This document shows positions 47,417-64,000 of a DNA stretch of 64,000 nt, one piece after another (positions within the stretch are counted from its first letter, which is position 1; each line of letters begins with the position of its first letter). The notes under the pieces are model-generated. The model searched no databases. It was not told where the DNA came from and saw nothing but the letters and a program-made list of their open reading frames with translations. The translations under genes and the position numbers were made by a program. The stretch is taken from NCBI GenBank assembly GCA_030039035.1, contig JASHQQ010000067.1, positions 110 through 64,109 on the forward strand, in the 5' to 3' direction. The stretch comes from Acidobacteriaceae bacterium (GTDB lineage Bacteria; Acidobacteriota; Terriglobia; Terriglobales; Acidobacteriaceae).

Positions 47417-47592
47417 ACCGGGACCATGACAGGCCATGACGCAGGGAGCGGGATCGCCGTCGAACCGGTGCAAACGTAGGTCACGGTAACCTGCCGCTTC
47501 TTCCGATTCCATGAGAAGCACGTCACAGTTAGCGGGTTCTCAATATCAATCTGACTTCGCTTAGAATCGGCAAATTCTGTCGATGATGATCA

Positions 47593-47619
47593 AGATCGGC
47601 AAATCCGGAAGGAACTTGA
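47593..47619 (-). promoter_or_regulatory. Sigma28 (FliA)-type promoter for the PAS kinase
   Basis: Minus strand TCAA-N15-GCCGATCT versus consensus TAAA-N15-GCCGATAA. Confidence 0.55.
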
Positions 47620-47647
47620 AGGGAGTCAATTTCCAGACAGCGGAGCA

Positions 47648-48124
47648 TCAGGGTTCCTTCTCCGGTTCGGTCAGAATCGTGACCCAGAAGAATCCGTCGG
47701 GCGAATCGAAGGCGCATTGCAGCATGAGCTCGGCCCGGCAAAAGCGCACCCGATAGTCTCCTCCATCCACGACCGAAGGCATGGAGAGGCTGATGCCGCG
47801 CGTCACGACGCATTTGAGATTCCCGCCGATCATGTTGGCCACTTCTCCCAGCACGTCCCGAACCGTGTCGTCCACGGTATCGGGCAAGTCGATCGACAGG
47901 AATCGGGCCGCGAAAGCGCAGGCCTGCCGGCGATCGCACTCGAGCAAGACCACTCCATTCCAGTCGCCCGACAGATGCACGGCCGCCGTCAGGCGGTTGC
48001 CGTCCGGCGACCAGGGGTCGGAAGATGGCACGATCTCCAGGCCGATCATGGTGGAGAAAACCGACTGGACGATCTGAACCAGATCGGAGACCTCGATGCA
48101 TACCTTCATCGCAGACGCTGACAT
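47648..48124 (-). CDS. cheX: CheX-family phosphatase
   Basis: 'VFSTM', 'V.LSGDW.G', 'DVLGEVANMIGGNLK', 'LSMPSVV.G'. Confidence 0.9.
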   Translation of the reverse strand: MSASAMKVCIEVSDLVQIVQSVFSTMIGLEIVPSSDPWSPDGNRLTAAVHLSGDWNGVVLLECDRRQACAFAARFLSIDLPDTVDDTVRDVLGEVANMIGGNLKCVVTRGISLSMPSVVDGGDYRVRFCRAELMLQCAFDSPDGFFWVTILTEPEKEP

Positions 48125-48136
48125 TGGCGATTCTCC

Positions 48137-48967
48137 TCACTTGGCGACATAGACGGTCGCGGCTCCAATGCTCCGCCGCTCGAACCAGCGGTCGACGCCG
48201 ATCGCCGTCTCGGCCCCGCCGAGCAGCAGCCAGCCGCCGCGAAAGAGCGTGGCGTGGAGCTCGCGCAGGATCTGGTCCTTGGTCCGGGCGTCGAAGTAGA
48301 TCATGACGTTGCGGCAGAAGACCAGATCGAACGGTCCGAGCGCCCGCATGCTCTTGCGCAGGTCGATCAACTCGAACTGCGCCAGCCGGCGCGCTTCCTC
48401 GCCCAGTTGCCATTCCATGCCCGCGCGGCGGAAGTATTTGACCAGCAGGGACGCCGGCAGCCCGCGGTTCACTTCGATCTGCTGATACTTGCCTGTCCGG
48501 GCGCGTTCCACGACTTTGGAGGCAAAATCGGTGCCCAGAATCTGAAGGTTCCAGTTGCCGAATCCTTCTTCCAGCAGCAGCATCGCGAGACTGTAGGCTT
48601 CCTGTCCGGTGGACGACGCCGCCGACCAGAACCGCATTCTTCTCGTATCGCGCCGCTCTTCCCGCAGGCGAGGCAGCAGAACCGACCGGATGGAATCGTA
48701 CTGGGCCGGATCGCGGAAAAAGTACGTTTCGTTGGTGGTCATCGCCTCAACCACCCGGCGATTGACTTCCGTTTCCCGCCCTGCCTTGAGCAGCGTGCAC
48801 AGATCGTTGATCGAACCGAGCCCGAGCTGCCTTACGATGGGCGAGAGCCGGCTTTCGAAAAGGTACTGCTTGTCGTCCTCGAATACGATGCCGGCCTCGG
48901 AATAGATACGATCCCGCAGGAACCGATAGTTGTCGGAAAAAATCGGGACTGTCTCGACCGCGGACAT
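48137..48967 (-). CDS. cheR: Chemotaxis methyltransferase CheR
   Basis: 'MTTNETYFFRD', 'WSAASSTGQEAYSLAM', 'FDLVFCRNVMIYF', 'LGGAET'. Confidence 0.96.
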   Translation of the reverse strand: MSAVETVPIFSDNYRFLRDRIYSEAGIVFEDDKQYLFESRLSPIVRQLGLGSINDLCTLLKAGRETEVNRRVVEAMTTNETYFFRDPAQYDSIRSVLLPRLREERRDTRRMRFWSAASSTGQEAYSLAMLLLEEGFGNWNLQILGTDFASKVVERARTGKYQQIEVNRGLPASLLVKYFRRAGMEWQLGEEARRLAQFELIDLRKSMRALGPFDLVFCRNVMIYFDARTKDQILRELHATLFRGGWLLLGGAETAIGVDRWFERRSIGAATVYVAK

Positions 48968-48979
48968 TCTGTCTGTCTC

Positions 48980-50077
48980 CTAACGCAGTTCCACCCGGCG
49001 CAGAACTTCGGGAATCATCTGATCCAGGGGCAGGACGCGGTCGGCCAGGCCGGCATTGACAACCGCTCCCGGCATTCCCCACACCACGCTCGACGCCTCA
49101 TCCTGGGCGAGGACGGTTGCTCCCTTTTTCCTCAGCACTTCGACACCGCGCAAACCGTCCTGCCCCATGCCGGTGAGGATCACGGTGAGAGTGGCCCCGC
49201 CGTAGGTTTCGGCGAGCGAAGCCAGCAGGGCGTCGACGGCGGGACGGCAGGAGTTGAGAGGCGGCGACTGATCGAGACGGATCGATACGGCATCGCCCGC
49301 CGCCGCGACCTTCATGTGATAGTCGCCGGGAGCGATGAAAATCCGGCCCGGCTTTACCGGCATGCCGTTGGCCGCTTCGGAAACCGGGAGCCGGCAGGTT
49401 GCGTCCAGCCTGTCGGCGAGAAACCGCGTGAACAGCGGCGGCATGTGCTGCACCACGAGCACGGGAAGCGGAAAATCGCCCGGCAGTTGGGGCAGCACCG
49501 CGCCCAGAGCGGTCGGTCCTCCGGTGGAGACGCCGATGGCCAGCGCCCGCGGCCGCGGACGCGGGCCTTGCGGAACCACCGCGGCCAACGATCCGTTTGC
49601 TGTCTTCGGCGCGGCGACGATGCCGGCGCTCCCCGGAAAGCGGAAGAACTGCCGGATCTTCGGGAGCAGTTCCTGCCGAAGCCGATCCATCGAGCGCTCG
49701 AGCGACGGTTCATTGGTGACCTTTTGCACATAGTCGTCGGCGCCCAGTGTCAGCGCTTCGAGGGTGATGGCCGCTCCGCGCTCGGTGAGCGTGCTGAGCA
49801 TGATCACGCGCAATTGGGGATACTCGCGGCGCAGGCGCCGCAGCGTTTCCAGTCCGTCCATCTCCGGCATTTCGATGTCGAGAGTAAGAACATCGGGATT
49901 GAGCTGCGGGATCCGCTGCAGGGCGATGGCGCCGTTCGATGCGGTGCCGACCACGTTCAGTTCCCCATCCTGCTCGAGGGCGTGCGTGACCAGGCGGCGA
50001 ACAACCGCGGAGTCGTCCACAACCAGAACCCGGACCCGCTCTCCGGGTTGAAGAACTCGCCTGATGGTCAACGCCAC
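48980..50077 (-). CDS. cheB: Chemotaxis methylesterase CheB (REC plus esterase domain)
   Basis: 'VLVVDDS', 'LDIEMP', 'IGVSTGGP', 'VQHMP', 'RPAVD', 'ILTGMGQDG', 'VVWGMP'. GTG start after GAGGAG. Confidence 0.96.
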   Translation of the reverse strand: MALTIRRVLQPGERVRVLVVDDSAVVRRLVTHALEQDGELNVVGTASNGAIALQRIPQLNPDVLTLDIEMPEMDGLETLRRLRREYPQLRVIMLSTLTERGAAITLEALTLGADDYVQKVTNEPSLERSMDRLRQELLPKIRQFFRFPGSAGIVAAPKTANGSLAAVVPQGPRPRPRALAIGVSTGGPTALGAVLPQLPGDFPLPVLVVQHMPPLFTRFLADRLDATCRLPVSEAANGMPVKPGRIFIAPGDYHMKVAAAGDAVSIRLDQSPPLNSCRPAVDALLASLAETYGGATLTVILTGMGQDGLRGVEVLRKKGATVLAQDEASSVVWGMPGAVVNAGLADRVLPLDQMIPEVLRRVELR

Positions 50078-50087
50078 GCCTCGCTCC

Positions 50088-50462
50088 TCAGCCTCGAACA
50101 CCGGTCATGTGGAGCTTCTCGAGAAGAATCTCCTTCGTGAAGGGCTTCATGACGTACTCGCTGGCTCCGGCCTCGAGCGCCTCGGTCATGTGATCCAGCT
50201 CCGTCTCCGTCGTGACCATCACGAAGGTGATCGACGCGAAACCCGGCCGCTGGCGCAGTTTTCTCAACAGCTCGATGCCTGTGACTTCCGGCATGTTCCA
50301 GTCGGCGAGGATCAGCTCCACCCTGATCCCTTCGCTTTCGATCATCTCCAGCGCGCGCTTCCCGTTCTCGGCCTCGACGACTTCGAATCCGATTTCCCGC
50401 AGCAGCCTGCCGATGAGCATCCGCATGGCCTTCGAATCGTCCACAACCATTGCCCTGGCCAT
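50088..50462 (-). CDS. cheY: CheY-like response regulator
   Basis: 'VVDDS', 'LADWNMP', 'MVTTE', 'YVMKPF'. SD GGAGG upstream. Confidence 0.93.
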   Translation of the reverse strand: MARAMVVDDSKAMRMLIGRLLREIGFEVVEAENGKRALEMIESEGIRVELILADWNMPEVTGIELLRKLRQRPGFASITFVMVTTETELDHMTEALEAGASEYVMKPFTKEILLEKLHMTGVRG

Positions 50463-50541
50463 GTTCCCCTCCAGGAAAAGGACAATCCGCCCATCGAACA
50501 CGGCCGGGAAACGACCGGCCGTATTTCGAAAAGGCGAACGA

Positions 50542-52788
50542 TCAGAAGGTGAACTTCGAGGTCACCATCTGCAGTTGAGACGCCATACGGCTCAGCTCCT
50601 GCGACGCTTTCTGCGTGTCGCTGGCGCCCTGGGTGGTGTTTTTGGCGGCCACGGCAACGCCGCCGATGTTCTTGGCGATGTTGCCCACCCCCTGCGCCGC
50701 CTCGGCCACGCTGCGGCCGATTTCATTGGTGGTCGCGGTCTGTTCCTCCACAGCCGAGGCGATGCTGTTGGAGATATCGTTGACCTGGTTGATGATGTTG
50801 CTGATCTCCTCGATGGCCTGAACAGCTCCGTGGGTGTCACCCTGGATGGCCTCGATCCTCTGGCTGATATCCTCGGTAGCTTTGGCGGTCTGCTTGGCAA
50901 GCTCTTTCACCTCGTTGGCCACCACCGCGAAGCCCTTGCCTGCCTCGCCGGCTCGCGCCGCTTCAATGGTGGCGTTCAGCGCGAGCAGGTTGGTCTGCTG
51001 GGCGATCGAAGTAATTACCTTGATGACATTGCCGATCTCCTGGCTGGACTCGCCGAGCTTTTTGACGGTGAGGTTGGTCGATTGCGCCACGCTGACGGCG
51101 TTCTTGGCCACCCGAGCCGACTCGTTGGCGTTCTTCGAGATCTCGCGGATCGATGCCTGCATCTCTTCGGAAGCCGATGCGACCGAGGCGACGTTGGCCG
51201 AAACCTGCTCGCTGGCCGCCGAGACCACGTTGGCCTGCGTGGCGGTCTCTTCGGCGTTGCCGGCCATCTGCTGGCTCACCGCCGTCAGCTCCTCCGAGGA
51301 AGATGCCAGCGCGGTGGCGTTCTCGGCCGTCACCTTGAGCGGCTCCACGACGACTTCGAGCATCCTGTTGATGCCCTCGATGATCTTGCGGAACTCGCCC
51401 GGATGCGCGGAGGCATTGGCGCGCGTTCCCAGCTTGCCGTCGGACGCGGCCTTGATCAGCGTCTCGGTATCGGCGATGAGAGCCTCGAGGTTCTCCATGA
51501 GCTGGATCAAGTTGGGTATCATCTCGTCCTGCTCGGAACGCTTCCCGACCTGCTTGAATTCGCGCAGCCTTCCCAAGTCGCCATTTGCAATGTGCTTTAC
51601 GGCATCGACTACGCTGCGCACTCGTTCTTCGGTCGCATTCACCGCCGTCGCGACCTCGGCGAAGACGCCGGTGTATTTCCCCTCGACGCTCCGGGTGTAA
51701 TCGTTCACCGCCATCCTCTGCAGGACCTGGTTGGCTTCCCCGAGCCCGCTCAGGCCATCAATGCAGGCGTTGATGCTTGCCGTCAACGCGGTAAAGTCGC
51801 CGCCGCAGGTTTCGGTGAGCTTGGGAGGAATCTCGCCCCGCCCGATACGATCGATGTGGCCGGCCATGGAGCGGAAGGCGCACTTCGCCGCGCTGATATC
51901 GGTGGCGAATTTGACGACCTTGAAGGGCTTGCCGTTCAGATCGAGGATGGGATTGTAGCTGGCCTGCAGCCAGACTTCCTTGCCGCCCTTGCCGATGCGC
52001 CTGTACTCGGCCGACTGATACTCGCCGCGGTTGAGCGCGGCCCAGAACTCCTTGTATTGGGCGGAGCGCCGGTACTCCTCGTCCACAAACATGCTGTGGT
52101 GACGGCCCTTGATCTCGTCGAGTGTGTAGCCCATCGTGTCGAGGAAGTTCTCGTTGGCGTCGAGGATCTTGCCGTCGAGGCTGAATTCGATGACCGCTTG
52201 CGCTTTGCGCGCGGCGGCAATCTGGCCCTCGAAGTCGGCGTTGCGCAGCTTCTGCGCGGTGACCTCGGTAGCGTATTTCACCACCTTGAAGGGCTTGCCG
52301 TTCATGTCCAGGATCGGGTTGTAGCTGGCCTGCAGCCACACCTCGCGTCCGCCTTTGCCGATGCGCTTGAATTCGTCGGCCCTGTATTCGCCGCGGTTGA
52401 GGGCGGCCCAGTTCTCCTTGTACTTCGCGGAGCGCACAAATTCCTCGTCCACGAACATGCTGTGGTGACGGCCCTTGATCTCGTCGAGCGTGTAGCCCAT
52501 CGTCTTGAGGAAGTTCTCGTTGGCGTCGAGAATGTTTCCCTCCATGTCGAATTCGATCACGGCCTGCGATCTGCGAATGGCCGCAACCTGGCCGGCATAG
52601 TCGTAAAACCGCTCGCGGTCGATCTCCTGCTCCGCGACTTTGCCCCTGTGAGCATCGGCTGAGCGGCTCCGCGAGCTGCCGTTGCCGCCCCGGTCGTGAA
52701 TGCGTTCATACTCCTCGTCCAACACTGCGGCTGCCGAAGAATCCCGGTCGGAGCGAAAGCGCCGGCCGTCATTGCCTTGCTTGTTCAT
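50542..52788 (-). CDS. Soluble methyl-accepting chemotaxis protein with two PAS domains and HAMP-like linkers
   Basis: No TM segment. Two '[27 protein letters not shown]...[11 protein letters not shown]' PAS units. Signalling hairpin '[37 protein letters not shown]'. Confidence 0.95.
51895..52620. repeat. Intragenic tandem duplication of the PAS unit (366-bp period)
   Basis: GAATTCGAT.AC at 52183 and 52549, with long near-identical stretches such as AACATGCTGTGGTGACGGCCCTTGATCTCGTCGAG in both units. Confidence 0.85.
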
Positions 52789-52905
52789 GTGCTTCTCCTG
52801 TCTCGTCCGTTGTGTTCGCTTCGCCGTCTCCGGCAGCATTTCTCTCTGATTGCATCGCGGATGAAACTGCTTCCGCATTTCGCGCGCCGCACCCTCTCGC
52901 GCCGG

Positions 52906-53385
52906 CTACGCGGCGTTCCTTTCTTCCAGGTCCATCGCCTTTTCTACGTCGAGAACCAACATCAGCCGGTCCTTGAGCTTGTACACGCCCCGGATCAGTT
53001 GGCGGGCCGCCGGATCGAGGCTTTCCGGCGGACGCTCGTAGAGCGCGCGATCCACATCGAGCACATCGCCGATTTCGTCCACCAGCAGGCTCACCGCGCC
53101 GTCCTCGCTTCCGATCACCATGTTCATCGGGCTCTGGCCCTCGGCGCGATCGGGCAGCTTGAGCATTCGCCGCATATCGATCGCGGTGACGATCTGCCCG
53201 CGCAGGTTGATCAGGCCTTCGATGACCTGGGGGGCCAGCGGCACCCGGGTCATGTGCTGGAAGAGCAAGACTTCCTGCACCCGCAGGACATCGACGCCGA
53301 AGAACAGGTTGCCGACGAAAAAGGTCGAGAATTGGCTGGCGGCTTGGGTTTCCGGGCCGATGGATGCTGTGTTTCCGTTCGACAT
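52906..53385 (-). CDS. cheW: Chemotaxis coupling protein CheW
   Basis: 'FGVDV..VQEV', 'TRVPLAP..IEGLINLRGQIVTAID', 'LLVDEIGDV'. Confidence 0.95.
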   Translation of the reverse strand: MSNGNTASIGPETQAASQFSTFFVGNLFFGVDVLRVQEVLLFQHMTRVPLAPQVIEGLINLRGQIVTAIDMRRMLKLPDRAEGQSPMNMVIGSEDGAVSLLVDEIGDVLDVDRALYERPPESLDPAARQLIRGVYKLKDRLMLVLDVEKAMDLEERNAA

Positions 53386-53388
53386 TTC

Positions 53389-55995
53389 TCATTTCTCCTG
53401 GCAGGCCAGCTCTCCGGCGTCCTGGGGATTCGGCGCGTCCGATCCCAGGCGCGCCACTGCTTCGAGAACGGCCTCCGAATCGGAGATATCGACAAGCTCC
53501 CGATAGCCCCTCGCCTGGCCGGATGCCGTCGTTGTGCGCCCGTCCAGATTCGTGAGGCCGAGAACGGGGATCCTCTGCCATTCCTGCCTGCCACGCAGGG
53601 CCGAGATCAGCTCGCCGCTCCCCTTCGGGGAAAGATCGAGCTCGGCGAGGACGACGTCGACCGGCTGCTTCTCCAGAACGCGAATCGTCCCGTCGAGATC
53701 GCCCGCTTCCACGACCCGATGACCGCCCATATCGAGGCTGCAGTGAATCAGGCTGCGCCGGAATTGGGATTTGGCCGCGACCAGAACGCGCTTGCCGGCT
53801 TCTCTTCTCCCGCGGTTGAACCACGCGCCCCCCGAGGACCGCAGAATGTGGTTGAGATCCAGAATGTCGGTGACCCGGCCGCCCAGCACCGCCGATCCCA
53901 GCAAACCCTTGCGGCTCGACTTTTCCCTGATGTCGATCGCCTCTTCCACTACATCGAGGATCTGGTCGACGACGATTCCGGCGCTGCGTTCCCCGTCGTT
54001 GAACACAACGACCTGGAGATGTCCGGCCGCCGGGGTTTCGTGGCCTTCTCCCGCGGACAACGCGTCGCGCAGGGAGATGAGCGGAAGGATGCGGCCCCGG
54101 TACTGAACCACCTGCGTGTCGCCGGCCTTTTCGATCGAGTCCTGGGAAAGCTCTTCAAGCCGCGAAACCAGCGACAGCGGAACGGCAAGGCGCTCGAACG
54201 ATCCGGTGCGGAAGAGGAGCATGCGCTGCTTGCGCTCGGCCAGGAACTCGGTTCGCTGTTCGGCGGAGCCGCGGGACTGCTCGCGGATCTCCGACAGGAC
54301 GCCGGACCGCTGGCCGATTCCGAGCACGTCGAGGATCAGGGCCACGCGGCCATCTCCCATAATCGTCGCGCCGGCATAGATGCTCAGCCCTTTCAACTGC
54401 TTGCTCAGGGGCTTGACGACGATCTCCTGGGTGTCGTTGATGCCATCGACCACCAGTCCGAACTGGCGGTCCTCGGCCTGCAGCACGATGATGTTGGTCG
54501 CATCGGCCTGGGCGCGCGACTTCAGACCCAGCACGTCGTTCAGACAGGCGATCGGCAGCAGCGTTCCCCGCCGGCGATAGACCGGCGTGCCGTGCACATG
54601 CTCGATGCGCTTGTCCGAGGAGTCGCTTTCCAGACGGATCAGCTCCAGCAGACTGACCTGGGGGATGACGAACCGCTCGCCGCCGCTGGTGATCACCAGG
54701 CCGGGAATGATCGCCAGGGTGAGCGGGATTTTCAGCTTGACCGTGGTTCCATCGCCCGGCTGGCTGACCATGTCGACGACGCCGCCGATCTTCTCGATGT
54801 GGGATTTCACCACATCCATTCCCACGCCGCGCCCTGAGACAGTGGTGACCCTTTGTGCCGTCGAGAATCCTGGTTGAAAGACCAGGTTCAGCGCTTCGCG
54901 GTCGCTTAGCTTCTCGGCCTGTTCGGGCCGCAGCATGCCTTTCTCGATCGCCTTCCGGCGCACCGAAGCGACGTCGATGCCGGCGCCGTCGTCGCTGATC
55001 TCGATGTTGACCTGTCCGCCTTCGTGGTAGGCGCGAAGCAGCAGTTTCCCGGCTGCCGGCTTGCCCACCGACGAGCGCACCTCCGGCGCCTCGATGCCGT
55101 GGTCGCAGGAATTGCGCACCAGATGGACGAGCGGGTCCTTGATGGCTTCGATGATGGTGCGGTCGAGCTCCGTCTCGGCGCCGTCCATCTCCAGCTGGAT
55201 CTGTTTTCCCAGCGCCTGGGCCATGTCGCGCACCACGCGGGGCAGCTTGTTCCAGATCACCCCGATCGGCTGCATGCGCGTCTTCATCACGCCTTCCTGC
55301 AGCTCCGAGGTGATCAGGTTCAGCCGTTGCGCGGTGGCATTCAACGCAGGATCTTCGCGCTCGGAGTTGAATTGCAGGATCTGGTTGCGCGCCAGAACCA
55401 GCTCGCCGACCAGATCCATGAGGTTGTCCAGCAATCCCACTCCCACCCGGATGTTGGCATCGGCGATGGCCGACGATCTGGTGGCATCGGTCTCCGCCCT
55501 GGCGGCTTCCACGGCGCCGGAAGGGCTTTCGTCGCTCCCGGGACCCGGCGCCGGATTTGCCGCTCCGTCTTCGGCCAATGATGCGGACGCAGGCCTGTTT
55601 TGTTTCGTATCGGATGCGTTGACGGCCGCGCGCAGGCGTTCGGTCAGGTCCTCGAACCGCTCGGTGCCTTCCTCGTTGCTCGCTTCGATCGAGGCCAAAA
55701 CCTTTCGGGTCGCGTCGACGGTCTCCAGAATCAGCGAAACAATGTGGCTGTCGAGTTCGCATTGACCGTCGCGCAGCCGGCTCAGCAGGCTTTCGGCCTG
55801 ATGCGTGATCTTTTCCAGCGTGGAGAAGGCGAGAAACCCGCAGGTGCCCTTGATCGTGTGGATGGTCCGGAAGATGCTCGTCAACAGCTCCTTGTCTTTC
55901 GGTCTTTGCTCGAGCTCGACGAGCTCCTGGTCCAGGCGCGAGAGGTTCTCGTAGCTCTCCACAATGAATTCGCGAATCACTTCCTGATCCTGCAT
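53389..55995 (-). CDS. cheA: Chemotaxis histidine kinase CheA (Hpt, dimerization, HATPase, CheW, CheW, degenerate REC)
   Basis: 'IFRTIHTIKGTCGFL', 'LMDLVGELVLARNQ', 'HLVRNSCDHGIE', 'SGRGVGMDVVK', 'IPLTLAII', two CheW-like domains. Confidence 0.96.
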   Translation of the reverse strand: MQDQEVIREFIVESYENLSRLDQELVELEQRPKDKELLTSIFRTIHTIKGTCGFLAFSTLEKITHQAESLLSRLRDGQCELDSHIVSLILETVDATRKVLASIEASNEEGTERFEDLTERLRAAVNASDTKQNRPASASLAEDGAANPAPGPGSDESPSGAVEAARAETDATRSSAIADANIRVGVGLLDNLMDLVGELVLARNQILQFNSEREDPALNATAQRLNLITSELQEGVMKTRMQPIGVIWNKLPRVVRDMAQALGKQIQLEMDGAETELDRTIIEAIKDPLVHLVRNSCDHGIEAPEVRSSVGKPAAGKLLLRAYHEGGQVNIEISDDGAGIDVASVRRKAIEKGMLRPEQAEKLSDREALNLVFQPGFSTAQRVTTVSGRGVGMDVVKSHIEKIGGVVDMVSQPGDGTTVKLKIPLTLAIIPGLVITSGGERFVIPQVSLLELIRLESDSSDKRIEHVHGTPVYRRRGTLLPIACLNDVLGLKSRAQADATNIIVLQAEDRQFGLVVDGINDTQEIVVKPLSKQLKGLSIYAGATIMGDGRVALILDVLGIGQRSGVLSEIREQSRGSAEQRTEFLAERKQRMLLFRTGSFERLAVPLSLVSRLEELSQDSIEKAGDTQVVQYRGRILPLISLRDALSAGEGHETPAAGHLQVVVFNDGERSAGIVVDQILDVVEEAIDIREKSSRKGLLGSAVLGGRVTDILDLNHILRSSGGAWFNRGRREAGKRVLVAAKSQFRRSLIHCSLDMGGHRVVEAGDLDGTIRVLEKQPVDVVLAELDLSPKGSGELISALRGRQEWQRIPVLGLTNLDGRTTTASGQARGYRELVDISDSEAVLEAVARLGSDAPNPQDAGELACQEK

Positions 55996-56110
55996 GTCCT
56001 TGCTTTCTCCAACCGGTCAGGCGCCGTCGTCGGCACAAGGGATGGTCAACGCGCGCCCTGTGGGTGTTGAATCCCGGCTTCAGGCGATCATCGGTATCGA
56101 TCCGGTTGGA

Positions 56111-56137
56111 TTATCGGCAACCGGGAGAAAAACTGTA
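56111..56137 (-). promoter_or_regulatory. Sigma28-type promoter of the che operon
   Basis: Minus strand TACA-N15-GCCGATAA (perfect -10 element). Confidence 0.7.
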
Positions 56138-56538
56138 GAAGGTCGATCGCGGGCGGCGAGCCTGTCGTCGGCTCTCTTTCATTCAGCCTTTCCCGGCCAT
56201 TCCCCTCCGCACCGCGTTGAAAAGGCAAAATGCGGAATTCCGCGCTGCGCCATCCGCCTTCGTTTCAGATGGAGCCGGCGTACATGGCATCGATCCACCT
56301 CGGCTGCCCTCCGGAGCAAGCGAGCGCGTGCAAATCCATGCCCCGCCTGCCAGCCGGCATGCCATAAAAGTCATTAAATCCGCATGTCCGGGCGCATCGG
56401 GATTGCACAGTGTTCAAGCGCATTCCGTTTCGCACGATAACGGGAGAGACGCCAGTCCCGCCCGATTCCGCGCCCGCTTCTGCGCCTGGCGCGAACGGGA
56501 AGACTGCGCTTTTTTGCAATCGGAAAGGTTGTCTGTCC

Positions 56539-58701
56539 ATGCGAGAATTGAAACCCTGGCTTGCCGGTCTGCTGATCTTGCCGGTCATGGCCGTGCCGCT
56601 CCATGCGCAATATGACAGAGGCGGAAAAGCCGTCGAGACGGAGCCCGGAGCTTCGAGTGAGAAGGCTGGAACCGGTCCCGCGACGGCGGCTCCGGCTTCC
56701 AACCCGGCCCTGAGACCAGCCGCGGCTCCAGGGGCGGCGAGTCTCTCGGCATTGGTCGATGTGCTCTTGACGAAAGACGTGCTCACGCCGGCGGAGGTCA
56801 AAGCCATCCGCAACGCGGCCCCCGCGGCCCAATTGCAGCTTCTGGTGCAAGCGCTCACGCGCAAAGGCGTACTGAACGCAGCGGACCTGGCGGGGGCGCC
56901 GACCGGAACCGGGGTCGTCACAGCCCCGACCGCGCCACCGGCCCCGGTCTCCGCCGCCGCGCCTCGCCCGAAACAGCAGGCCCCCGTGCCGCAACCCGAA
57001 CTGGCGGAACTGAAGCCGCCTTCCGCAAAAGTGGTTCCGGCGATTGTTCCCCTGCGCGTTCTTGCTCTCGACCCTCCCAAATCCGGCGGCCTGGCCGGTC
57101 TCAAGGTCGGCCCGGTCACATTTACGCCCTATGGCTTCATTAAAGGAACTGCGGAGCAGGATAGCAGTTCGCCTAATGGCGACGACTTTCCCATTCCCGC
57201 CGGTCTCATGTTGCTGCCCGGCAGCAACACCGGCCCGAATGCCGATCCCGAGTTCCATATGAAAGCGCGTCAAAGTCGCATGGGAGTGAATCTGGAGTGG
57301 CCGTCCATTTCCCGGAAGATGGTCCTCACTGGCCGCTTCGAGGCCGACTTCGAAGGCAACTTCAACGAATCGGACAACGCCGACGTCACTTCCATCCGCA
57401 ACCCCAATCTGCGCTTGCGCCTCGCTTACGCGCGCGTGGACTACGGCGCCGCGGAGAGAACAAGCCTGTACTTCGTGGGCGGACAGGACTGGACGCTCTT
57501 CGGTTCAAAGGCAATGCCGAACATGCTCGACACCACCTGGAATGCCGCCGACTACGGCGCCATCTACAACCGCTCGCCGCAGTTCCGTTTCGGCGCTGTG
57601 CAGAAGCTGGGCGGGTCCTCGCGCGATTTCAAAGTCTCGCCCGAGTTCGCGATCATGATGCCGAGTTCAGGCCAGGTGGAGAAGCTCACCTTCTGCACCC
57701 TGGCAGCCCTGGACTGTCCGCCCGCGGTCGCGCCCACCGCCGGCTTCCTCGGCCAGGTCGGCGAGGCGGAGCGCCAGGGAGCCGACTCCGACCGGCCCGA
57801 GCTGAACGCGGGACTGACGTTGCAATTCCGCCTGGACGCTGCTCCGGCCGTTGCTCCCGCGCAGTTCTTCTGGACCGGAATGTATGGACAGCGCTCTTCG
57901 ATCGTTCCCAATACCGAAGAGGATCTCATCGGCGACAAATATCCTTCCGCGCTGGTCGCGGGCACGCCGTTAGCCAAGGGATTTATCGCCGGCAGCGACA
58001 TGTACGGCAATCAGATTGGCGCGCAATTGCCCACCCGCTGGTTCACGCTGGTGGCAAGCGCCTATCGGGGCGCCGACCTGCGCGATGTGCTGGGCGGCCA
58101 GCTCACAACCAACTACACCGATACAACAAAACTGTTCCCCATTCCCCTGGTCAACGCGAACGGCGTCAATCCGGCGCCCTTCTTTCTGGGTACGGGGTTG
58201 GATAACGTAGCCGGCACGCTTTCCGGCTTCGCCGCGCTGGGTTGCGGCGTCAATCCGGGCAAGGGAGCCTGTCCCCCGGATGACGTCGTGGTTGCTCCCG
58301 AGCATGGCGTGGGCGCCTACGGCGGATTCGCCGAATTGGGCCTGCCGCTTTCGCGCTGGTTCGACGCCGATCCCAGGGGCTACAACGCGGGATGGCAACT
58401 CTATTTCCACGCCGGCAAGGATCAGCTTGTCCATCGGAACGCCGCCATGCAGCTTGGATTACTGGATGCGGCCGGCCCCAACCAGGCAGGCCAGGGACTC
58501 GGCATCCCCATGATCGGGGGCGAATTCATCGGAGCGACACTGTATTACAAGATCAACCAGTGGTGTACGTTCGGATTGGAGCCGACGCATTACGGTTCGC
58601 GCGCCATACCCGAGCTGGGCAAATTCTGGATCATTGCGGCGACGCCGTCGCGCATCTGGCAGGACCAGCGCGTGGAATTCGGACCGGTGTTCACGTTCTA
58701 G
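56539..58701 (+). CDS. Outer-membrane beta-barrel porin (DcaP-like) with Pro/Ala-rich periplasmic N-terminus
   Basis: Signal peptide, 'PYGFIK', 'ARQSRMG', 'FEADF.G', 'LRLRLAYAR', 'GQDWTLF', 'RSPQFR', C-terminal 'EFGPVFTF' ending in Phe. Confidence 0.7.
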   Translation: MRELKPWLAGLLILPVMAVPLHAQYDRGGKAVETEPGASSEKAGTGPATAAPASNPALRPAAAPGAASLSALVDVLLTKDVLTPAEVKAIRNAAPAAQLQLLVQALTRKGVLNAADLAGAPTGTGVVTAPTAPPAPVSAAAPRPKQQAPVPQPELAELKPPSAKVVPAIVPLRVLALDPPKSGGLAGLKVGPVTFTPYGFIKGTAEQDSSSPNGDDFPIPAGLMLLPGSNTGPNADPEFHMKARQSRMGVNLEWPSISRKMVLTGRFEADFEGNFNESDNADVTSIRNPNLRLRLAYARVDYGAAERTSLYFVGGQDWTLFGSKAMPNMLDTTWNAADYGAIYNRSPQFRFGAVQKLGGSSRDFKVSPEFAIMMPSSGQVEKLTFCTLAALDCPPAVAPTAGFLGQVGEAERQGADSDRPELNAGLTLQFRLDAAPAVAPAQFFWTGMYGQRSSIVPNTEEDLIGDKYPSALVAGTPLAKGFIAGSDMYGNQIGAQLPTRWFTLVASAYRGADLRDVLGGQLTTNYTDTTKLFPIPLVNANGVNPAPFFLGTGLDNVAGTLSGFAALGCGVNPGKGACPPDDVVVAPEHGVGAYGGFAELGLPLSRWFDADPRGYNAGWQLYFHAGKDQLVHRNAAMQLGLLDAAGPNQAGQGLGIPMIGGEFIGATLYYKINQWCTFGLEPTHYGSRAIPELGKFWIIAATPSRIWQDQRVEFGPVFTF

Positions 58702-58733
58702 AAAACTGCGGCTGATTCGCCGCGCTCGCTGGC

Positions 58734-59264
58734 CTATGCGGTTCGGGGCTTTGGCTGCGACAGCCCGCCGTACGCGATTGAAACTGTGAAGCGCACGTCT
58801 TCAAACCCGTAAGCGCACTGGAGCTGGAACTCGAGCGCCTGCAGATGGAGATTGTACCCGCTCCCGGAGACCACTGCGGGGACGGAGAGACCGCAACTGG
58901 CCGCCAATTCCGGCACCTTGTTGCGCCAGGCCCCGGCCACCATGTTGCAGATTTCGCCGATCCCGTCCTCCACCATTTCGTCGACCTCGGCAAAGACCAT
59001 TCCTGCCATGCGGCCGACCATCCTCATGGCGGCCCGGGCGCTGCAGCGGAGAACGCAGGCCCCGCTCAGCACTCCGCCAAGCCCGATCACGGCCGTCACG
59101 ATTCCCTGCTCGGTTTCCATCTCCGCAGCGGGCGCGTCGGCGATTCGCCGGCAATTGACCCCCAGCATCATGCCGAAGACTTCTTCAACGCCGGCATCGA
59201 GATTCTTCGCATCGCAAAGCCCAGGATGAGTTTCCTGCAGGCATTGCGGCGTTGTACATTTCAT
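58734..59264 (-). CDS. cheX: Second CheX-family phosphatase
   Basis: 'EVFGMMLG', 'TAVIGLGGVLSG', 'DGIGEICNMVAGAW', 'LSVPAVVSG'. Confidence 0.88.
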   Translation of the reverse strand: MKCTTPQCLQETHPGLCDAKNLDAGVEEVFGMMLGVNCRRIADAPAAEMETEQGIVTAVIGLGGVLSGACVLRCSARAAMRMVGRMAGMVFAEVDEMVEDGIGEICNMVAGAWRNKVPELAASCGLSVPAVVSGSGYNLHLQALEFQLQCAYGFEDVRFTVSIAYGGLSQPKPRTA

Positions 59265-59331
59265 GGTCTTCACTCCGCGGAAATGCAATGCCGCTGCGAT
59301 GGGAACCCGTTCCGCTTGCAGCGGCCTTCGT

Positions 59332-59715
59332 TCAGGCGGTCTTCAGCAACGGCAATACGCGGGCCCGAATCTGCTCGATGCTGAACGGCTTGGGAATGAA
59401 GTACTGCGCCCCCGCCGCCAGCGCCTGCTTGGCGCGGTCCAGGCTCGCCTCGGTCGTGATCATGACTACCGGCACGCCGGGAGCCAGATCCTGCGAGCGC
59501 AACTGGCGGAGGAACTCCAATCCGTCCATCGAAGGCATATTAATATCGGTAAGGATCAGATCGACCGGCTTGCTTTTCAGCGTCTCCAGCGCGTCGGCTC
59601 CGTTGCTGGCCTCGTACGCCAGCAGGGAATCGAGGCCCGCCTGGCGCAGGGAACGTTCCACGATCTTGCGCATCACCGAAGAATCGTCGACGATGAGGAC
59701 TCGCACTTCGCTCAC
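59332..59715 (-). CDS. cheY: Second CheY-like response regulator
   Basis: GTG start after SD AGGAG. 'LIVDDSSVMRKIV', 'LTDINMP.MDGLEF', 'MITTE', 'KPF'. Confidence 0.92.
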   Translation of the reverse strand: MSEVRVLIVDDSSVMRKIVERSLRQAGLDSLLAYEASNGADALETLKSKPVDLILTDINMPSMDGLEFLRQLRSQDLAPGVPVVMITTEASLDRAKQALAAGAQYFIPKPFSIEQIRARVLPLLKTA

Positions 59716-59738
59716 GGATACACTCCTTCGCGATTGCC

Positions 59739-59765
59739 TTATCGACTGTTCCGCGCGGGACTTGA
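59739..59765 (-). promoter_or_regulatory. Sigma28-type promoter of cheY-cheX
   Basis: Minus strand TCAA-N15-GTCGATAA. Confidence 0.6.
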
Positions 59766-59871
59766 ATGCTTCATCCCGGAGCATGGACCGGACGGCTCGT
59801 CTTTCCGCCTTGTTGGAGCCGCAAGGCGGCGTGGCTTTTGGCCTGAAGTCGATTCCGGGAGGCCGCATCGC

Positions 59872-61053
59872 ATGGCGCGGGCATCGGATGTTCTCGTAAT
59901 CGGACTGGGCGCGATGGGCAGCGCGGCCGCGGCGTGGCTGGCTGAAAACGGATATCGCGTGACGGCTTTCGACCGCTTTGTTCCGCCGCATGCGCACGGC
60001 TCGTCGCACGGGCGCTCGCGAATCTTTCGCCAGGCGTACTGGGAAGACTCGCGCTACGTGGAATTGCTGCTGCGCGCCGGCTCCCTGTGGGCGAAGCTGG
60101 AACGCGACAGCGGTGTGCGATTGCTTCACGTCACCGGTGGTCTGATGATCGGACCATTCGACGGGCAGCTCGTGAAGCGCAGCGCGGAAAGCGCGCGAAG
60201 ATACGGACTGCCGCATGAGATCTTTGCCGCCGGCGAGCTGCGCAGGCGCTGGCCGGTCTTCCGCGCCGGCGACGATACCGTCGCGCTGCTGGAGCATGGC
60301 GCCGGGTATCTCATTCCCGAGGCTTGCATCGAACAACAACTTCGCCAGGCCGCTCGCCATGGCGCGCGCTTGCAGCTCGACGAAGAGGTGCTCGCATGGA
60401 GCGCGGGATCCGGAGAAGTTCGCGTAAAAACGGGGCAAGGAGTCTACGCCGCCGGACATCTGGTCATTGCGGCCGGTCCGTGGGCGCCGCAGGTCCTCGC
60501 GGAAATGAAGTTGCCCATGCAGGCGACCCGGCAAGTGGTCTTCTGGTTCGCGCCCGATGGGGATCTCGCGCAGTTTCGCGAAGACCGGCTGCCGGTTTAT
60601 CTGTTCGGGACCGGGGACGAGCATCCGATTGTGTATGGTTTTCCCCTGACCGGAGCGGATGCGGAAGGCGTGAAGGTGGCCGTGCATGGCGGCGGCGAGG
60701 TCTGCACTCCGGAAACGGTCGGCCGCGAGATTCGCGCCGAAGACGAGCAGCTCATTCGGCGCCGGCTCGCGGAGACATTGCCCTCGCTTGCCGGAAGAGT
60801 CGTCAAGGCCGAAACCTGCCTCTACACCATGACTCCGGACGAACATTTCATTCTTGGCGTTCATCCTCATCATCCGCGTGTGACGCTGGCGGCGGGATTC
60901 TCCGGCCATGGCTTCAAATTCGCGCCGGTCATCGGGGAGATTCTGGGCGAACTGGCAACCCGCGGCGAGTCACGTTTCGACTTCGGAATGTTTTCGCCGG
61001 ACCGGTTTGCGGCCGTTCCGCGCGCCGAAGCGCAGCCAGGTCCCCGATCATAA
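59872..61053 (+). CDS. solA: N-methyl-L-tryptophan oxidase / monomeric sarcosine oxidase family
   Basis: 'VIGLGAMGSAAA', 'HAHGSSHG.SRIFR.AY.E', 'CLYTMTPDEHF', 'GFSGHGFKFAPVIGE'. Confidence 0.92.
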   Translation: MARASDVLVIGLGAMGSAAAAWLAENGYRVTAFDRFVPPHAHGSSHGRSRIFRQAYWEDSRYVELLLRAGSLWAKLERDSGVRLLHVTGGLMIGPFDGQLVKRSAESARRYGLPHEIFAAGELRRRWPVFRAGDDTVALLEHGAGYLIPEACIEQQLRQAARHGARLQLDEEVLAWSAGSGEVRVKTGQGVYAAGHLVIAAGPWAPQVLAEMKLPMQATRQVVFWFAPDGDLAQFREDRLPVYLFGTGDEHPIVYGFPLTGADAEGVKVAVHGGGEVCTPETVGREIRAEDEQLIRRRLAETLPSLAGRVVKAETCLYTMTPDEHFILGVHPHHPRVTLAAGFSGHGFKFAPVIGEILGELATRGESRFDFGMFSPDRFAAVPRAEAQPGPRS

Positions 61054-61357: not shown

Positions 61358-61744
61358 ATGTTCTCACGGAAAACAAGAAGGATGGACCCCTCGATCTCAG
61401 CGCGCAGGCCGTGCGCCGCCGCGATTCTCGCTTTGTCCGCATCGCTCGTGGTTGCGGTATATTTCGCGCCCTCCTCTGCCGCGGCAGGCACCCTCGGCGG
61501 CCGCGCCAGGCTCGGTCAGGCGATCTTTCAGCAGCGTTGCATCACTTGCCACAACAAGCAACCTGGAGACACCTCGCCTTTTGGCCCGCCCAATCTCAAC
61601 GGGATCTTCCGGGGGCCGTCGCCGCTCACGGCGAAGCAGGCAACGAACATCATTGAAAACGGGAAGTCCACCATGCCGGCATTTGGCAGCGTGCTGACAC
61701 GGAGCGATGTCGACAACCTGATCGCTTATCTCAGGACGCGGTGA
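61358..61744 (+). CDS. Small monoheme cytochrome c
   Basis: Signal peptide, 'G.AIF...CITCH', 'GPPNL.GI', 'MPAF...L...DV.NLIAYL'. Start 61358 or 61382. Confidence 0.9.
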   Translation: MFSRKTRRMDPSISARRPCAAAILALSASLVVAVYFAPSSAAAGTLGGRARLGQAIFQQRCITCHNKQPGDTSPFGPPNLNGIFRGPSPLTAKQATNIIENGKSTMPAFGSVLTRSDVDNLIAYLRTR

Positions 61745-61765: not shown

Positions 61766-64000
61766 TCATTGCACCTTCAAGGTGAACTGGATGGACTGCG
61801 TCACATTGCTCGCGCCGGTCATCGCTCCGGTGGGCGAGGCGACCGCGTTGATGGTGACGGTGGACGTGCCGGTCGGAGTGACGAAAGCGGTTGTGCCGCC
61901 GCACGCGGAGATTCCCGTCAGCGAACCCAGGACGACGACCGCCGCCGCGCATTGCATCCACAAGCGGCGTCTCGCCCTCCGGTTGCTTGCCACCCCGAAG
62001 AGGCTCAGTCCGAGCAGAAGTCCGCTCCACCAGAAAACCCCGGTCGGGGTGACCACCGGCGCCTGATCCACCAGCACGTTGAGCGTGGTGGTGAGAACCG
62101 GCACATTGATGGGCACCGCACCGGTTGCGCTGAGCGACAGAACCGCGGGAACGAACTGACACGTCGCGTGGGCCGGCAACCCGCTGCAGGAAAAGTCCAC
62201 TCCTCCCGTAAATCCGGCCCAGGAAGTCACCGAAATCGTCGAAGTTCCCGGAGCGCCCTGTGACGACGTGATGTTCGGCGCGCTTTCGGCCAGCACGAAC
62301 TTCGGCGGCGTGACGATCAACTGCGTCGGCTGCGACGCAGAGGAGATGTAGTTGGAATTCCCCATGAAAGTCGCGATGACAGGATACGTGCCTTCGGGAA
62401 TCGTGGTGGTGGTCAGCACCGCTGTGTAGACGGTCGCGGCGCCGACGGTTGTGCCGGTTACCGTTGCCGTTCCCAAAATCTTGTTCCCGCCCGAGAAAAC
62501 CACCGGCCCGGAGAGCGCGCCGGCGATCGACGGAACGACGGTCGCCGTCATGGTGACGCTGTCGCCGGTATTTGTGGGGTTCGGAGGCTCGATGGTGAGC
62601 GGGTTCACGGCGTAGCCCACAATCGAAAGCGTGGTCGCGGAAGGATCCGGAGTCACCACGATCGTTATGGGGCTGGACGCGCCGGGCGCATAGTGATTGT
62701 CGCCGCTGTAGCTGACGGCAATGGTATGACTGCCTCCGCTCAACCCTTTGAGCGTAAGCGAAGCCGTGCCGGAGGCGTTCAGGGTCAGCGGCTGGCCGTT
62801 GGCTCCATCCACGATGAAGATCACGGTTCCGGTCGGCGTGCCGAAGACTCCGCTCATGCGGCTGACGGTCACCTCCACGGTGACCGATGTGCCGTAGCTG
62901 ATCGTCCCGCCGCCGGGCGCAATTTTCGCCAGCGACACCTTGGGAATCGTCAGGTTCACGGTATCGCCGGTGAGCAGCAGCGACGCCGAAGAGGTGTTTT
63001 GCGCCTTGGTGCCGAAATCCAGCGTGTATTGTTGATCGCCCTCCAACGACTTGCTCGGGGCAAAGACCGTGTCGAGCGTACAAGTGGATCCGGCGGCGAG
63101 CAGTGGCAGGCCGGCGCAGCCGCCGCTGGCGGGCGAGGTAACCAGGAACGGCGTTCCCGTGGGCGGCGGATAGAGCGGCTTGTCAAAAGTCAGGTCCGCC
63201 GGACCGGAACTGGCCAGCACGGCCGTTTCTTCCACGCTGGTGCTGCCTCCGTTCACACGGCCGAAAGCGATCAATCCCGAGGTTCGGTTCAGGAATTCAA
63301 CGACGCCATTGGTGTTGTCCGTGGCATAGATATTTCCGGTCGCGTCCAACTGGACGGAGTGGGGGCTGGCAATTGTGGTGTTGATCGTGACCTGATCGCT
63401 GGTGGTCAGCACGCCGTTCTCCAGGGGAACGCGCACAATGCGGCCGTTTCCCTGGTCGGCGATCAGAATGCTCCCCGATGCATCGAGCGCCACGCCCGCG
63501 GGAGCGCTCAGGCTGCTGCCCACCGTGCTGCTGGCTCCATCGGAAAACTTCACCACGACATTGTCCCCGGTGTCGGCGATGTAAAGGTTCCCCGCGGAAT
63601 CCGCCGTCACAGCCTCCGGCGCTTTCAGCCCGCTCACCTGGGGGGTGGTCAAGGGACTCGAGCCCAGGCCGCCGCGGCTTACAAAGGCGAGCACGTCGTC
63701 ATTGCCCGTCTCGGGGATAAACAGCGTGCCGCCGGGATCGACGGCCAGTTGACCGGGAGCCTTGACGTTGCTCAACAGGGTGCTTTGCGCGGCGGGGTCA
63801 AGCGCGCCACCGGAGTTGGGAATCATGACAATGCGATCGTTTCCGGTGTCGGAGATGTAGAGGTTGCCTCCGGCGTCTACCGCAACACCGGCGGGCTGTC
63901 TCAGCCCGCTGCCCAGTGCCGTGCCCGAGCCCTTGCCGCCGGGAAACTCATAGACCGAGTCCGAGGCCGCATCGGCAACGAACACATTGCCGGCAGCGTC
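61766..64000 (-). CDS. Large NHL-repeat/Ig-like (Big_3) surface protein, 5'-truncated, with C-terminal TM hairpin and lipobox
   Basis: Frame open to the window edge. 'P.GVAVD..GNLYI.DTGN.RI' repeats, 'PTGTV.F..DG...G.H.I...YSGD.HY' Ig domains, C-terminal TM-RRARRR-hydrophobic-ISAC-GG. Confidence 0.88.
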   Translation of the reverse strand, partial: DAAGNVFVADAASDSVYEFPGGKGSGTALGSGLRQPAGVAVDAGGNLYISDTGNDRIVMIPNSGGALDPAAQSTLLSNVKAPGQLAVDPGGTLFIPETGNDDVLAFVSRGGLGSSPLTTPQVSGLKAPEAVTADSAGNLYIADTGDNVVVKFSDGASSTVGSSLSAPAGVALDASGSILIADQGNGRIVRVPLENGVLTTSDQVTINTTIASPHSVQLDATGNIYATDNTNGVVEFLNRTSGLIAFGRVNGGSTSVEETAVLASSGPADLTFDKPLYPPPTGTPFLVTSPASGGCAGLPLLAAGSTCTLDTVFAPSKSLEGDQQYTLDFGTKAQNTSSASLLLTGDTVNLTIPKVSLAKIAPGGGTISYGTSVTVEVTVSRMSGVFGTPTGTVIFIVDGANGQPLTLNASGTASLTLKGLSGGSHTIAVSYSGDNHYAPGASSPITIVVTPDPSATTLSIVGYAVNPLTIEPPNPTNTGDSVTMTATVVPSIAGALSGPVVFSGGNKILGTATVTGTTVGAATVYTAVLTTTTIPEGTYPVIATFMGNSNYISSASQPTQLIVTPPKFVLAESAPNITSSQGAPGTSTISVTSWAGFTGGVDFSCSGLPAHATCQFVPAVLSLSATGAVPINVPVLTTTLNVLVDQAPVVTPTGVFWWSGLLLGLSLFGVASNRRARRRLWMQCAAAVVVLGSLTGISACGGTTAFVTPTGTSTVTINAVASPTGAMTGASNVTQSIQFTLKVQ

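What the first reader, a model, noticed from the sequence alone, without database searches (positions are those of the whole stretch)
61766..62310. Split Ig domain interrupted by a membrane hairpin with an internal lipobox: candidate undescribed surface-anchoring/sorting system
Seen in sequence: the C-terminus reads [Ig-like part: FVL...GTSTISVT...GFTGGVDFSCSGLP..ATCQF.P...TTTLNVLV] - TM1 (GVFWWSGLLLGLSLFGVA) - basic cluster (NRRARRR) - hydrophobic stretch (AAAVVVLGSLTG) - ISA|C-GG - TPTGTSTVTINA...TQSIQFTLKVQ. Established knowledge: a basic n-region, h-region and [LVI][ASTVI][GAS]C form a canonical Lgt/LspA lipoprotein signal, but such signals normally sit at N-termini. Here the Cys (codon 61901-61903) begins the final 45-residue tail. 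From my recollection of uninterrupted versions of this Ig-type module, a 'TP.GT.T.T.T....T.TL.V' segment supplies the last two beta-strands. Inference: the tail could be lipidated and released as a 45-aa lipopeptide that completes the Ig fold by strand complementation. That would tether a giant NHL/Ig protein to the membrane after processing of the TM hairpin. I know of no named CTERM sorting system with this architecture.
Basis: partly seen in the sequence, partly recalled or inferred. Interest (0 to 1): 0.75.

Follow-up and report, generated by a model that had tools for sequence, protein, structure and literature searches.

The report
Lipo-invert tail splitting an Ig domain
This large, likely exported protein of an acidobacterium ends in a widespread tail in which two predicted membrane helices and a lipoprotein-type cysteine sit inside its last Ig-like domain, so a short, likely lipid-tagged end-piece is predicted to hold the protein at the cell envelope by completing that domain's fold; NCBI already catalogues this tail type as a putative anchor, and I found no paper that tests it.

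Summary
The gene is a 1253-aa NHL-propeller/Ig protein. Its tail matches NCBIfam NF058595 'lipo-invert putative C-terminal anchoring domain' over almost the whole model, at the cut-off (35.2-37.1 bits against 37), so the architecture is catalogued, not unnamed.

With hits chosen on the pre-membrane Ig half alone, 71 of 72 split copies keep the Cys. Intact versions of the module align with a gap exactly over the hairpin. AlphaFold2 places the post-Cys strands in one Ig sandwich with the first half (97 residues on 1eut, Z 11.8, rmsd 2.0). A two-chain prediction gave weak support only (0.37, best control 0.00). The tail occurs in 61 of 61 genomes of the order.

Likely mechanism (0.55, untested): Lgt lipidates and LspA cuts at the internal lipobox, and the lipopeptide holds the protein by strand complementation. 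The fate of the first helix is unresolved and I found no dedicated protease. My literature searches found no study. This scan reported the same tail on other genomes at least nine times.

The parts
61766..64000 (-). 3' 744 codons of a 1253-aa gene (G000:C110:65636-61875): N-terminal signal-peptide-like start outside the window, NHL/SBBP propeller repeats, two Big_3_5 domains, split Ig tail
63302..64000 (-). NHL-repeat beta-propeller region (part inside the window)
   Evidence: Pfam NHL, Vgb_lyase-like stretch to residue 233 of P0002
62651..62908 (-). Big_3_5 Ig-like domain (best of two stretches)
   Evidence: PF16640, residues 365-450 of P0002
62069..62302 (-). First part of the last Ig-like domain (strands A to E), with the Cys pair at 62188-62186 and 62161-62159
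   Evidence: alignment to intact modules; AlphaFold2 pLDDT 92-95 for residues 1-70; Cys columns 90/95 and 89/95
61988..62041 (-). Predicted membrane helix 1
   Evidence: sequence; family median hydropathy 1.78, Pro in 69 of 94; low model confidence, pLDDT 58-59
61964..61984 (-). Basic cluster NRRARRR, predicted cytoplasmic loop and n-region
   Evidence: sequence; R/K in 94 and 93 of 95 rows at positions 108 and 109
61913..61963 (-). Predicted membrane helix 2, like the h-region of a lipoprotein signal
   Evidence: helix 111-129 in the model; last K/R to Cys 13-25 residues, median 19
61901..61912 (-). Internal lipobox I-S-A-C
   Evidence: Cys 94 of 95; -1 is G, A or S in 94 of 94; no Asp at +2
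61766..61903 (-). 45-residue post-Cys tail and stop codon; predicted strands F (61870-61835) and G (61801-61772)
   Evidence: two-chain prediction weak

Best explanation
The tail is a membrane-hairpin insert with a lipoprotein-type cysteine inside the last Ig-like domain; the cysteine is likely lipidated by the ordinary Lgt and likely cut in front by LspA, and the 45-residue lipopeptide is predicted to stay bound to the large protein by supplying the domain's last two beta-strands. Shown: the insert lies between strands E and F of a module that also occurs intact; the Cys and the -1 residue are conserved; the enzymes are encoded. Predicted: the tail strands pack into the sandwich. Inferred: Sec export through the N-terminal signal puts both Ig parts in the periplasm, with the basic loop inside, so helix 2 and the Cys face Lgt and LspA as in a normal prolipoprotein. 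Least certain: helix 1 is then removed by an unidentified membrane protease, which would free the complex for transport to the outer membrane; if it stays, the protein is doubly anchored in the inner membrane.
For: Non-circular conservation: of 89 hits found with the pre-helix Ig half only, 72 are split, 15 intact, 1 broken, 1 cut off; 71 of the 72 split ones keep the Cys. -1 is G/A/S in 94 of 94, -3 mostly L/M/I/A/V; many of the host's own candidate N-terminal lipoprotein signals end alike (a noisy regex list of 56). Nine intact modules align with one gap over the hairpin. AlphaFold2 with 95 rows: mean pLDDT 82.5, tail strands 94-97; the model's residues 1-178 superpose on the 98-residue Ig domain of 1eut (405-502): 97 aligned, rmsd 2.0, Z 11.8. 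Two-chain prediction: weak support, 0.37 against best control 0.00, contacts agree 95% or more between runs, partner pLDDT 62; the mark was reached by 116 of 157 solved and 2 of 215 mismatched pairs, at 0.60 or under by 18 solved and both mismatches. In 150 repeat proteins a helix plus basic cluster followed 29 last and 0 of 1251 earlier repeats. Natural variants fit a self-standing lipopeptide: two proteins carry an extra domain between the Cys and strands F/G, one has the hairpin between F and G. LspA 1, Lgt 2, Lnt 1, LolA 1 in the genome.
Against: No experiment. Only 39 of 94 copies meet the strict lipobox. One split copy has Gly for Cys in an open frame (L085). The structure predictions may rest on likeness to intact Ig domains, and they would look the same for an uncut hairpin. 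The two-chain score lies in the range the tool calls more often wrong than right unless likely beforehand. No processing enzyme lies beside the tail genes read, and the second Lgt and one rhomboid do not follow the tail. I found no published case of LspA acting at an internal lipobox. No conserved cleavage motif stands out before helix 1.
Confidence: 0.55

Rival explanations
1. The hairpin is a permanent two-helix inner-membrane anchor. The Cys is lipidated but the chain is not cut, and the Ig domain simply folds around the insert in one chain.
For: The split fold and the models fit an uncut chain equally. The lipobox is loose at -3 and -2. No dedicated protease was found.
Against: The -1 position is G/A/S in 94 of 94, the rule for the Lgt/LspA site (established knowledge). 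A lipid adds little to a protein already held by two helices (inference). The same Ig module is also anchored by a plain single C-terminal helix in 7 other proteins, with no Cys.
Confidence: 0.2
2. A dedicated, clade-specific sortase-like enzyme, not the housekeeping Lgt/LspA pair, recognises the Cys and cuts or transfers the chain, as myxosortase does for MYXO-CTERM.
For: The tail is clade-bound: 65 of 65 genomes in four families against 6 of 85 in nine others. The genome has 9 Rce1-like, 3 rhomboid and 2 exosortase matches and a second Lgt.
Against: The Cys follows the second helix in normal prolipoprotein order; MYXO-CTERM has inverted topology and no defined lipobox (PMC11980579 Discussion). 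The second Lgt is in 130 of 151 genomes, tail-less families included. Single tails occur in families that mostly lack it (one read in full, L199), though bins may be contaminated.
Confidence: 0.13
3. The Cys is not lipidated; it serves a disulfide, or dimerisation, at the membrane surface of an uncut hairpin.
For: The split Ig half carries two further conserved Cys, so disulfide chemistry is in use there.
Against: Those two Cys are 9 residues apart and also occur as a pair in intact modules that have no third Cys (9 of 15), which leaves the tail Cys unpaired. The fixed small -1 residue and the spacing from the basic cluster are not expected of a disulfide Cys (inference).
Confidence: 0.08
4. 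The tail is made separately from an internal start codon, as a small ordinary lipoprotein.
For: This copy has a Met at position 116, in front of the hydrophobic stretch.
Against: That column is not a conserved Met (R, gap, L lead), and a start there would leave out the basic n-region. The short frames I pulled were contig ends or looked like broken genes; one (L189) holds only helix 2, Cys and tail without a fitting start.
Confidence: 0.04

Closest known systems
NCBIfam NF058595.1 invert_tail, 'lipo-invert putative C-terminal anchoring domain' (release 20.0)
   Same: Matches model positions 6-113 of 113 at the protein's C-terminus; 92 of 95 aligned tails match at E<=0.01.
   Different: This copy scores at the edge: 35.2-36.2 bits as protein, 37.1 as DNA, cut-off 37. 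The model starts near strand E and does not cover the first half of the Ig domain. I saw only the model's name, not its comment, so I cannot say whether the curators noted the split fold.
Sec/SPII lipoprotein signal peptides (Lgt, LspA, Lnt, Lol pathway)
   Same: Basic cluster, hydrophobic stretch, small -1 residue, Cys, Gly/Ser-rich linker, no Asp at +2.
   Different: It lies about 1200 residues into the chain, behind another helix; the product would be a short peptide that holds the upstream part non-covalently. Processing untested.
Tripartite C-terminal sorting signals: PEP-CTERM, GlyGly-CTERM, MYXO-CTERM
   Same: Helix 1 plus the basic cluster has the same order (helix, then basic residues) on exported proteins, many per genome.
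   Different: The chain goes on through a second helix and back out. No such model matched any of 95 tails. In MYXO-CTERM the Cys precedes the helix and there is no defined lipobox (PMC11980579).
Donor-strand complementation in chaperone-usher pili and type V pili
   Same: An incomplete Ig-like fold finished by strands from another chain; type V pilins start as lipoproteins (recalled; papers seen only as a search listing).
   Different: Here donor and acceptor come from one gene, two strands are given, and nothing points to a polymer.
DAG-RiPPs (PMC13056109)
   Same: Small peptides lipidated through the ordinary lipoprotein pathway (abstract).
   Different: They use an N-terminal signal peptide and MNIO modifying enzymes; no split domain.

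Membership tests
NCBIfam NF058595 invert_tail | Score at or above the curated cut-off of 37 bits | tested here: inconclusive
   35.8 and 36.2, 36.0, 35.2 on the whole protein; 37.1 on DNA. Four paralogs score 45-58 bits on DNA.
NCBIfam NF058595 invert_tail | Match over the whole model at the extreme C-terminus | tested here: met
   Positions 6-113 of 113, ending at the last residue, E about 1e-8.
NCBIfam NF058595 invert_tail | Same layout as members over the cut-off: helix, basic cluster, helix, Cys, two-strand tail | tested here: met
   Aligned with 94 others, all parts in register.
Sec/SPII lipoprotein | Basic n-region, h-region, lipobox with Cys | tested here: met
   NRRARRR, hydrophobic stretch, ISAC. 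Judged by pattern; SignalP was not available.
Sec/SPII lipoprotein | Signal at the N-terminus of the translated chain | tested here: not met
   The Cys is residue 1209 of 1253; no conserved internal start. It may work like one but is not filed as one.
Sec/SPII lipoprotein | Diacylglyceryl on the Cys and cleavage by LspA | not testable with these tools
   Enzymes are encoded; activity on this site needs an experiment.
PEP-CTERM / GlyGly-CTERM / MYXO-CTERM | Signature motif, one helix and basic residues ending the chain | tested here: not met
   A second helix and a 45-residue tail follow; no such family among matches for 95 tails.
Donor-strand complemented Ig fold | Acceptor lacks strands that the donor supplies | tested here: met
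   Intact modules align with strands F and G on the tail; the model forms one 97-residue sandwich. Predicted, not solved.
Donor-strand complemented Ig fold | Complementation between separate chains | tested here: inconclusive
   Weak support, 0.37 against best control 0.00; depends on a cleavage not shown.

The most novel reading that the evidence does not exclude
A whole order of Acidobacteriota sorts many large enzymes and adhesins to the cell surface by a route not yet described in the papers I could search: one gene makes both the cargo and its own lipoprotein anchor; Lgt and LspA act at an internal lipobox, a membrane protease removes the hairpin, and the cargo rides to the outer membrane held only by two donated beta-strands, a C-terminal lipid anchor built from the N-terminal lipoprotein machinery.
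Probability: 0.35. Interest if true: 0.8.

Novelty: new member of a known kind. Interest (0 to 1): 0.5.

Why it matters
If the mechanism holds, Lgt and LspA can work at an internal site, which signal-peptide predictors do not look for. It would also explain how a major group of soil bacteria anchors S53 proteases, lectin- and sugar-binding proteins and propeller proteins (up to 25 matches per genome). The tail could serve as a portable C-terminal lipid-anchor tag. This copy itself is one of many; its value is as a test case for a catalogued but untested anchor.

Tried and rejected
A second, divergent Lgt as a tail-specific enzyme: found in 130 of 151 class genomes, including f90 22/22, f4 21/21 and f89 5/5, which mostly lack the tail. 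Rhomboid C324 as a dedicated protease: at E<=1e-22 f1 21/22, f92 2/21, f2 3/21, f91 10/22, which does not follow the tail; the result depends on the threshold and does not exclude a housekeeping role. The two other rhomboids, nine Rce1-like proteins and two exosortases were not profiled; the tail follows clades, so a profile has little power. Neighbouring genes: no processing enzyme seen beside 5 own-genome genes or in 14 loci from three other genomes, read by eye. AlphaFold2 on the first Ig half alone had no alignment (pLDDT 43) and is not a fair control; ignored. Sequence search of the PDB: nothing under E 0.05. Pfam: no family for the last 192 residues at E<=1. The Solirubrobacteraceae locus L134 is a chance match to a short frame. 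Search for a stand-alone tail gene among short frames: none convincing in 17 regions, two of which were mis-chosen and gave nothing. Alignment-based scans of genome contigs could not run for lack of conserved blocks. The weak phylum-wide matches are noise: 6 of 14 control genomes also rang at that E-value.

Full report
Observation. The window holds the last 744 codons. The whole gene is G000:C110:65636-61875, 1253 aa, and begins with a stretch that reads like a type I signal peptide (judged by eye). Pfam gives NHL and SBBP propeller repeats and two Big_3_5 domains. Close relatives are in records titled Acidobacteriaceae bacterium and Terracidiphilus sp.. The gene follows an outer-membrane beta-barrel gene (PF25183) on the same strand, here and in the three named orthologous loci (two of the three scanned, one judged by likeness).

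It is catalogued. NCBIfam NF058595 'lipo-invert putative C-terminal anchoring domain' matches positions 6-113 of 113. The score sits at the cut-off of 37: 35.2-36.2 bits as protein, 37.1 as DNA. Four paralogs in the genome score 45-58 bits and share the layout. I saw the model's name only.

Spread. Over the cut-off in 61 of 61 genomes of the order, 70 of 151 of the class, 30 of 301 of the phylum and 0 of 14 control genomes. At E<=1e-6 four families have it in 22/22, 21/21, 21/21 and 1/1 genomes, nine others in 6 of 85. The tallies include unpublished genome G023 and those include G302 and G318; no sequence count rests on them.

Is the Cys conserved? To avoid circularity I searched 61 family genomes with the 79-residue Ig half that precedes helix 1 (323 matches). 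I read 90 top-ranked ones and dropped one from G318. Of 89, 72 are split by a hairpin (this gene included; one reclassified by eye), 15 are intact, 1 is broken and 1 is cut by a contig end. The Cys is present in 71 of 72: the script found 69, two were parse misses, and the alignment column confirms that only L085 has Gly. In alignment A1 (these 72 plus 23 tails picked by the NCBIfam model) the Cys is 94 of 95, -1 is G/A/S in 94 of 94, +2 is never Asp, and the last basic residue lies 13-25 residues upstream. The strict lipobox holds in only 39 of 94. All 13 long orthologs and 4 further hairpin-bearing proteins among 25 hits keep the Cys.

Is the Ig domain split? Nine intact modules align to this sequence with one gap over the hairpin, then resume at the TP.G strand. 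AlphaFold2 on A1 gives strands through residue 71, helices, then strands 145-156 and 168-177, with pLDDT 92-97 on both Ig parts and 58-67 on the linker and helix 1. The model superposes over residues 1-178 on single Ig domains, for example 1eut 405-502 (97 aligned, rmsd 2.0, Z 11.8), which needs both parts in one sandwich. Caveat: the model takes 62-71 as strand E, following the alignment, while the orthologs suggest 71-78; this does not touch strands F and G. Folding the two parts as separate chains gave weak support: 0.37, best control 0.00, runs agreeing in 95% or more of contacts, partner pLDDT 62; such a pass was reached at 0.60 or under by 18 of 157 solved pairs and both of the 2 mismatches of 215 that passed, and may come from likeness to intact Ig folds.

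Variants. The profile search returned 24,985 representatives at E<=1e-10, which include many with intact modules only. In the best 150, 1401 Ig halves were scored: a helix plus basic cluster followed 29 last and 0 of 1251 earlier repeats; 22 of the 29 are hairpin-Cys tails, 7 are intact modules with a plain terminal helix; the rule missed six tails seen by eye or. P0082 and P0126 carry an extra domain between the Cys and strands F/G; P0036 has the hairpin between F and G, so its tail gives one strand (one case). The Cys pair in the first half is present in 71 of 71 split against 9 of 15 intact modules and in 19 of 20 split halves against 55 of 158 intact repeats of the same 23 proteins. The query carried both Cys, and shared descent of the terminal cassette could explain this as well as a need to brace the half domain.

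Mechanism. With an N-terminal Sec signal, helix 1 would run out-to-in and helix 2 in-to-out, which puts the Cys at the periplasmic face in normal prolipoprotein order (inference). The genome encodes LspA, two Lgt, Lnt and LolA. I put Lgt lipidation, LspA cleavage and retention by strand complementation at 0.55. Helix 1 is weaker than helix 2, with Pro in 69 of 94 and a median of three Gly, as in substrates of membrane proteases (recalled), but no cleavage motif stands out and no enzyme was tied to it: the second Lgt and one rhomboid do not follow the tail, and none lies beside the tail genes read. Rivals: uncut two-helix anchor 0.2, dedicated enzyme 0.13, non-lipid Cys 0.08, internal start 0.04.

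Literature. 'lipo-invert', 'internal lipobox' and 'internal lipoprotein signal' gave 0 papers each; broader searches listed nothing on this tail (listings only). PMC11980579: passages and part 1 of 2 of the Discussion. bioRxiv 10.1101/2023.06.07.544157: a term search found no mention of Acidobacteria, lipobox or lipoprotein in the main text; its supplements were not seen and could bear on this. PMC13056109: abstract. The library lacks most subscription journals.

Earlier notes. The scan's readers reported this tail on other genomes nine times with the same NCBIfam assignment. I had found that match before looking; they are not independent support.

Verdict. A real feature and a new member of a catalogued but untested kind. 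The split fold is well supported by alignment and prediction, the lipid chemistry is likely, and the sorting route is open. Interest 0.5.

Noticed in passing
G000:C110:65718-66662 (L031:5219-6163, minus strand), just outside the window: An outer-membrane beta-barrel gene (PF25183) lies about 80 bases upstream on the same strand; the same pairing holds in L131-L133, and in L147 such a gene precedes three tail genes in a row. It recalls a barrel plus surface-partner operon, but most tail genes read have no such neighbour.
   Followed up: partly
P0082, P0126, P0036: Two tails hold an extra domain between the Cys and the two strands; one has the hairpin between strands F and G.
   Followed up: partly
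window 62159-62188: The Cys pair of the first Ig half is near-universal in split modules and much rarer in intact repeats, even within one protein.
   Followed up: partly
G000:C269:6180-7031 (L135:1681-2532): A second Lgt-like gene that has Gln where the first Lgt has the Arg of its GR.G motif; matches at E<=1e-10 in 130 of 151 class genomes, the weakest of which may be the first Lgt. Role unknown.
   Followed up: partly
G000:C119:8729-8731: An in-frame TGA separates a 532-codon and an 1818-codon frame of another tail gene; a broken gene or an assembly error.
   Followed up: partly
L085 (G320:C1:1851800-1853000): The one split copy with Gly in place of the lipobox Cys; its frame in L201 is only 281 codons with no clear start, so it may be decaying.
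   Followed up: partly
window 61358-61744, plus strand: A small c-type cytochrome gene (PF13442) converges on the tail gene, 21 bases from its stop.
   Followed up: no
window 44507-60909: A chemotaxis cluster by eye (CheX-, CheR-, CheB-, CheY-, CheW-, CheA-like and a PAS chemoreceptor); one CheY-like frame seems to overlap a sarcosine-oxidase-like gene on the other strand. Names recalled, not scanned.
   Followed up: no
G000:C247:14520-15371: A rhomboid-like protein reading GCMG where active rhomboids have GxSG (recalled motif); possibly inactive.
   Followed up: no
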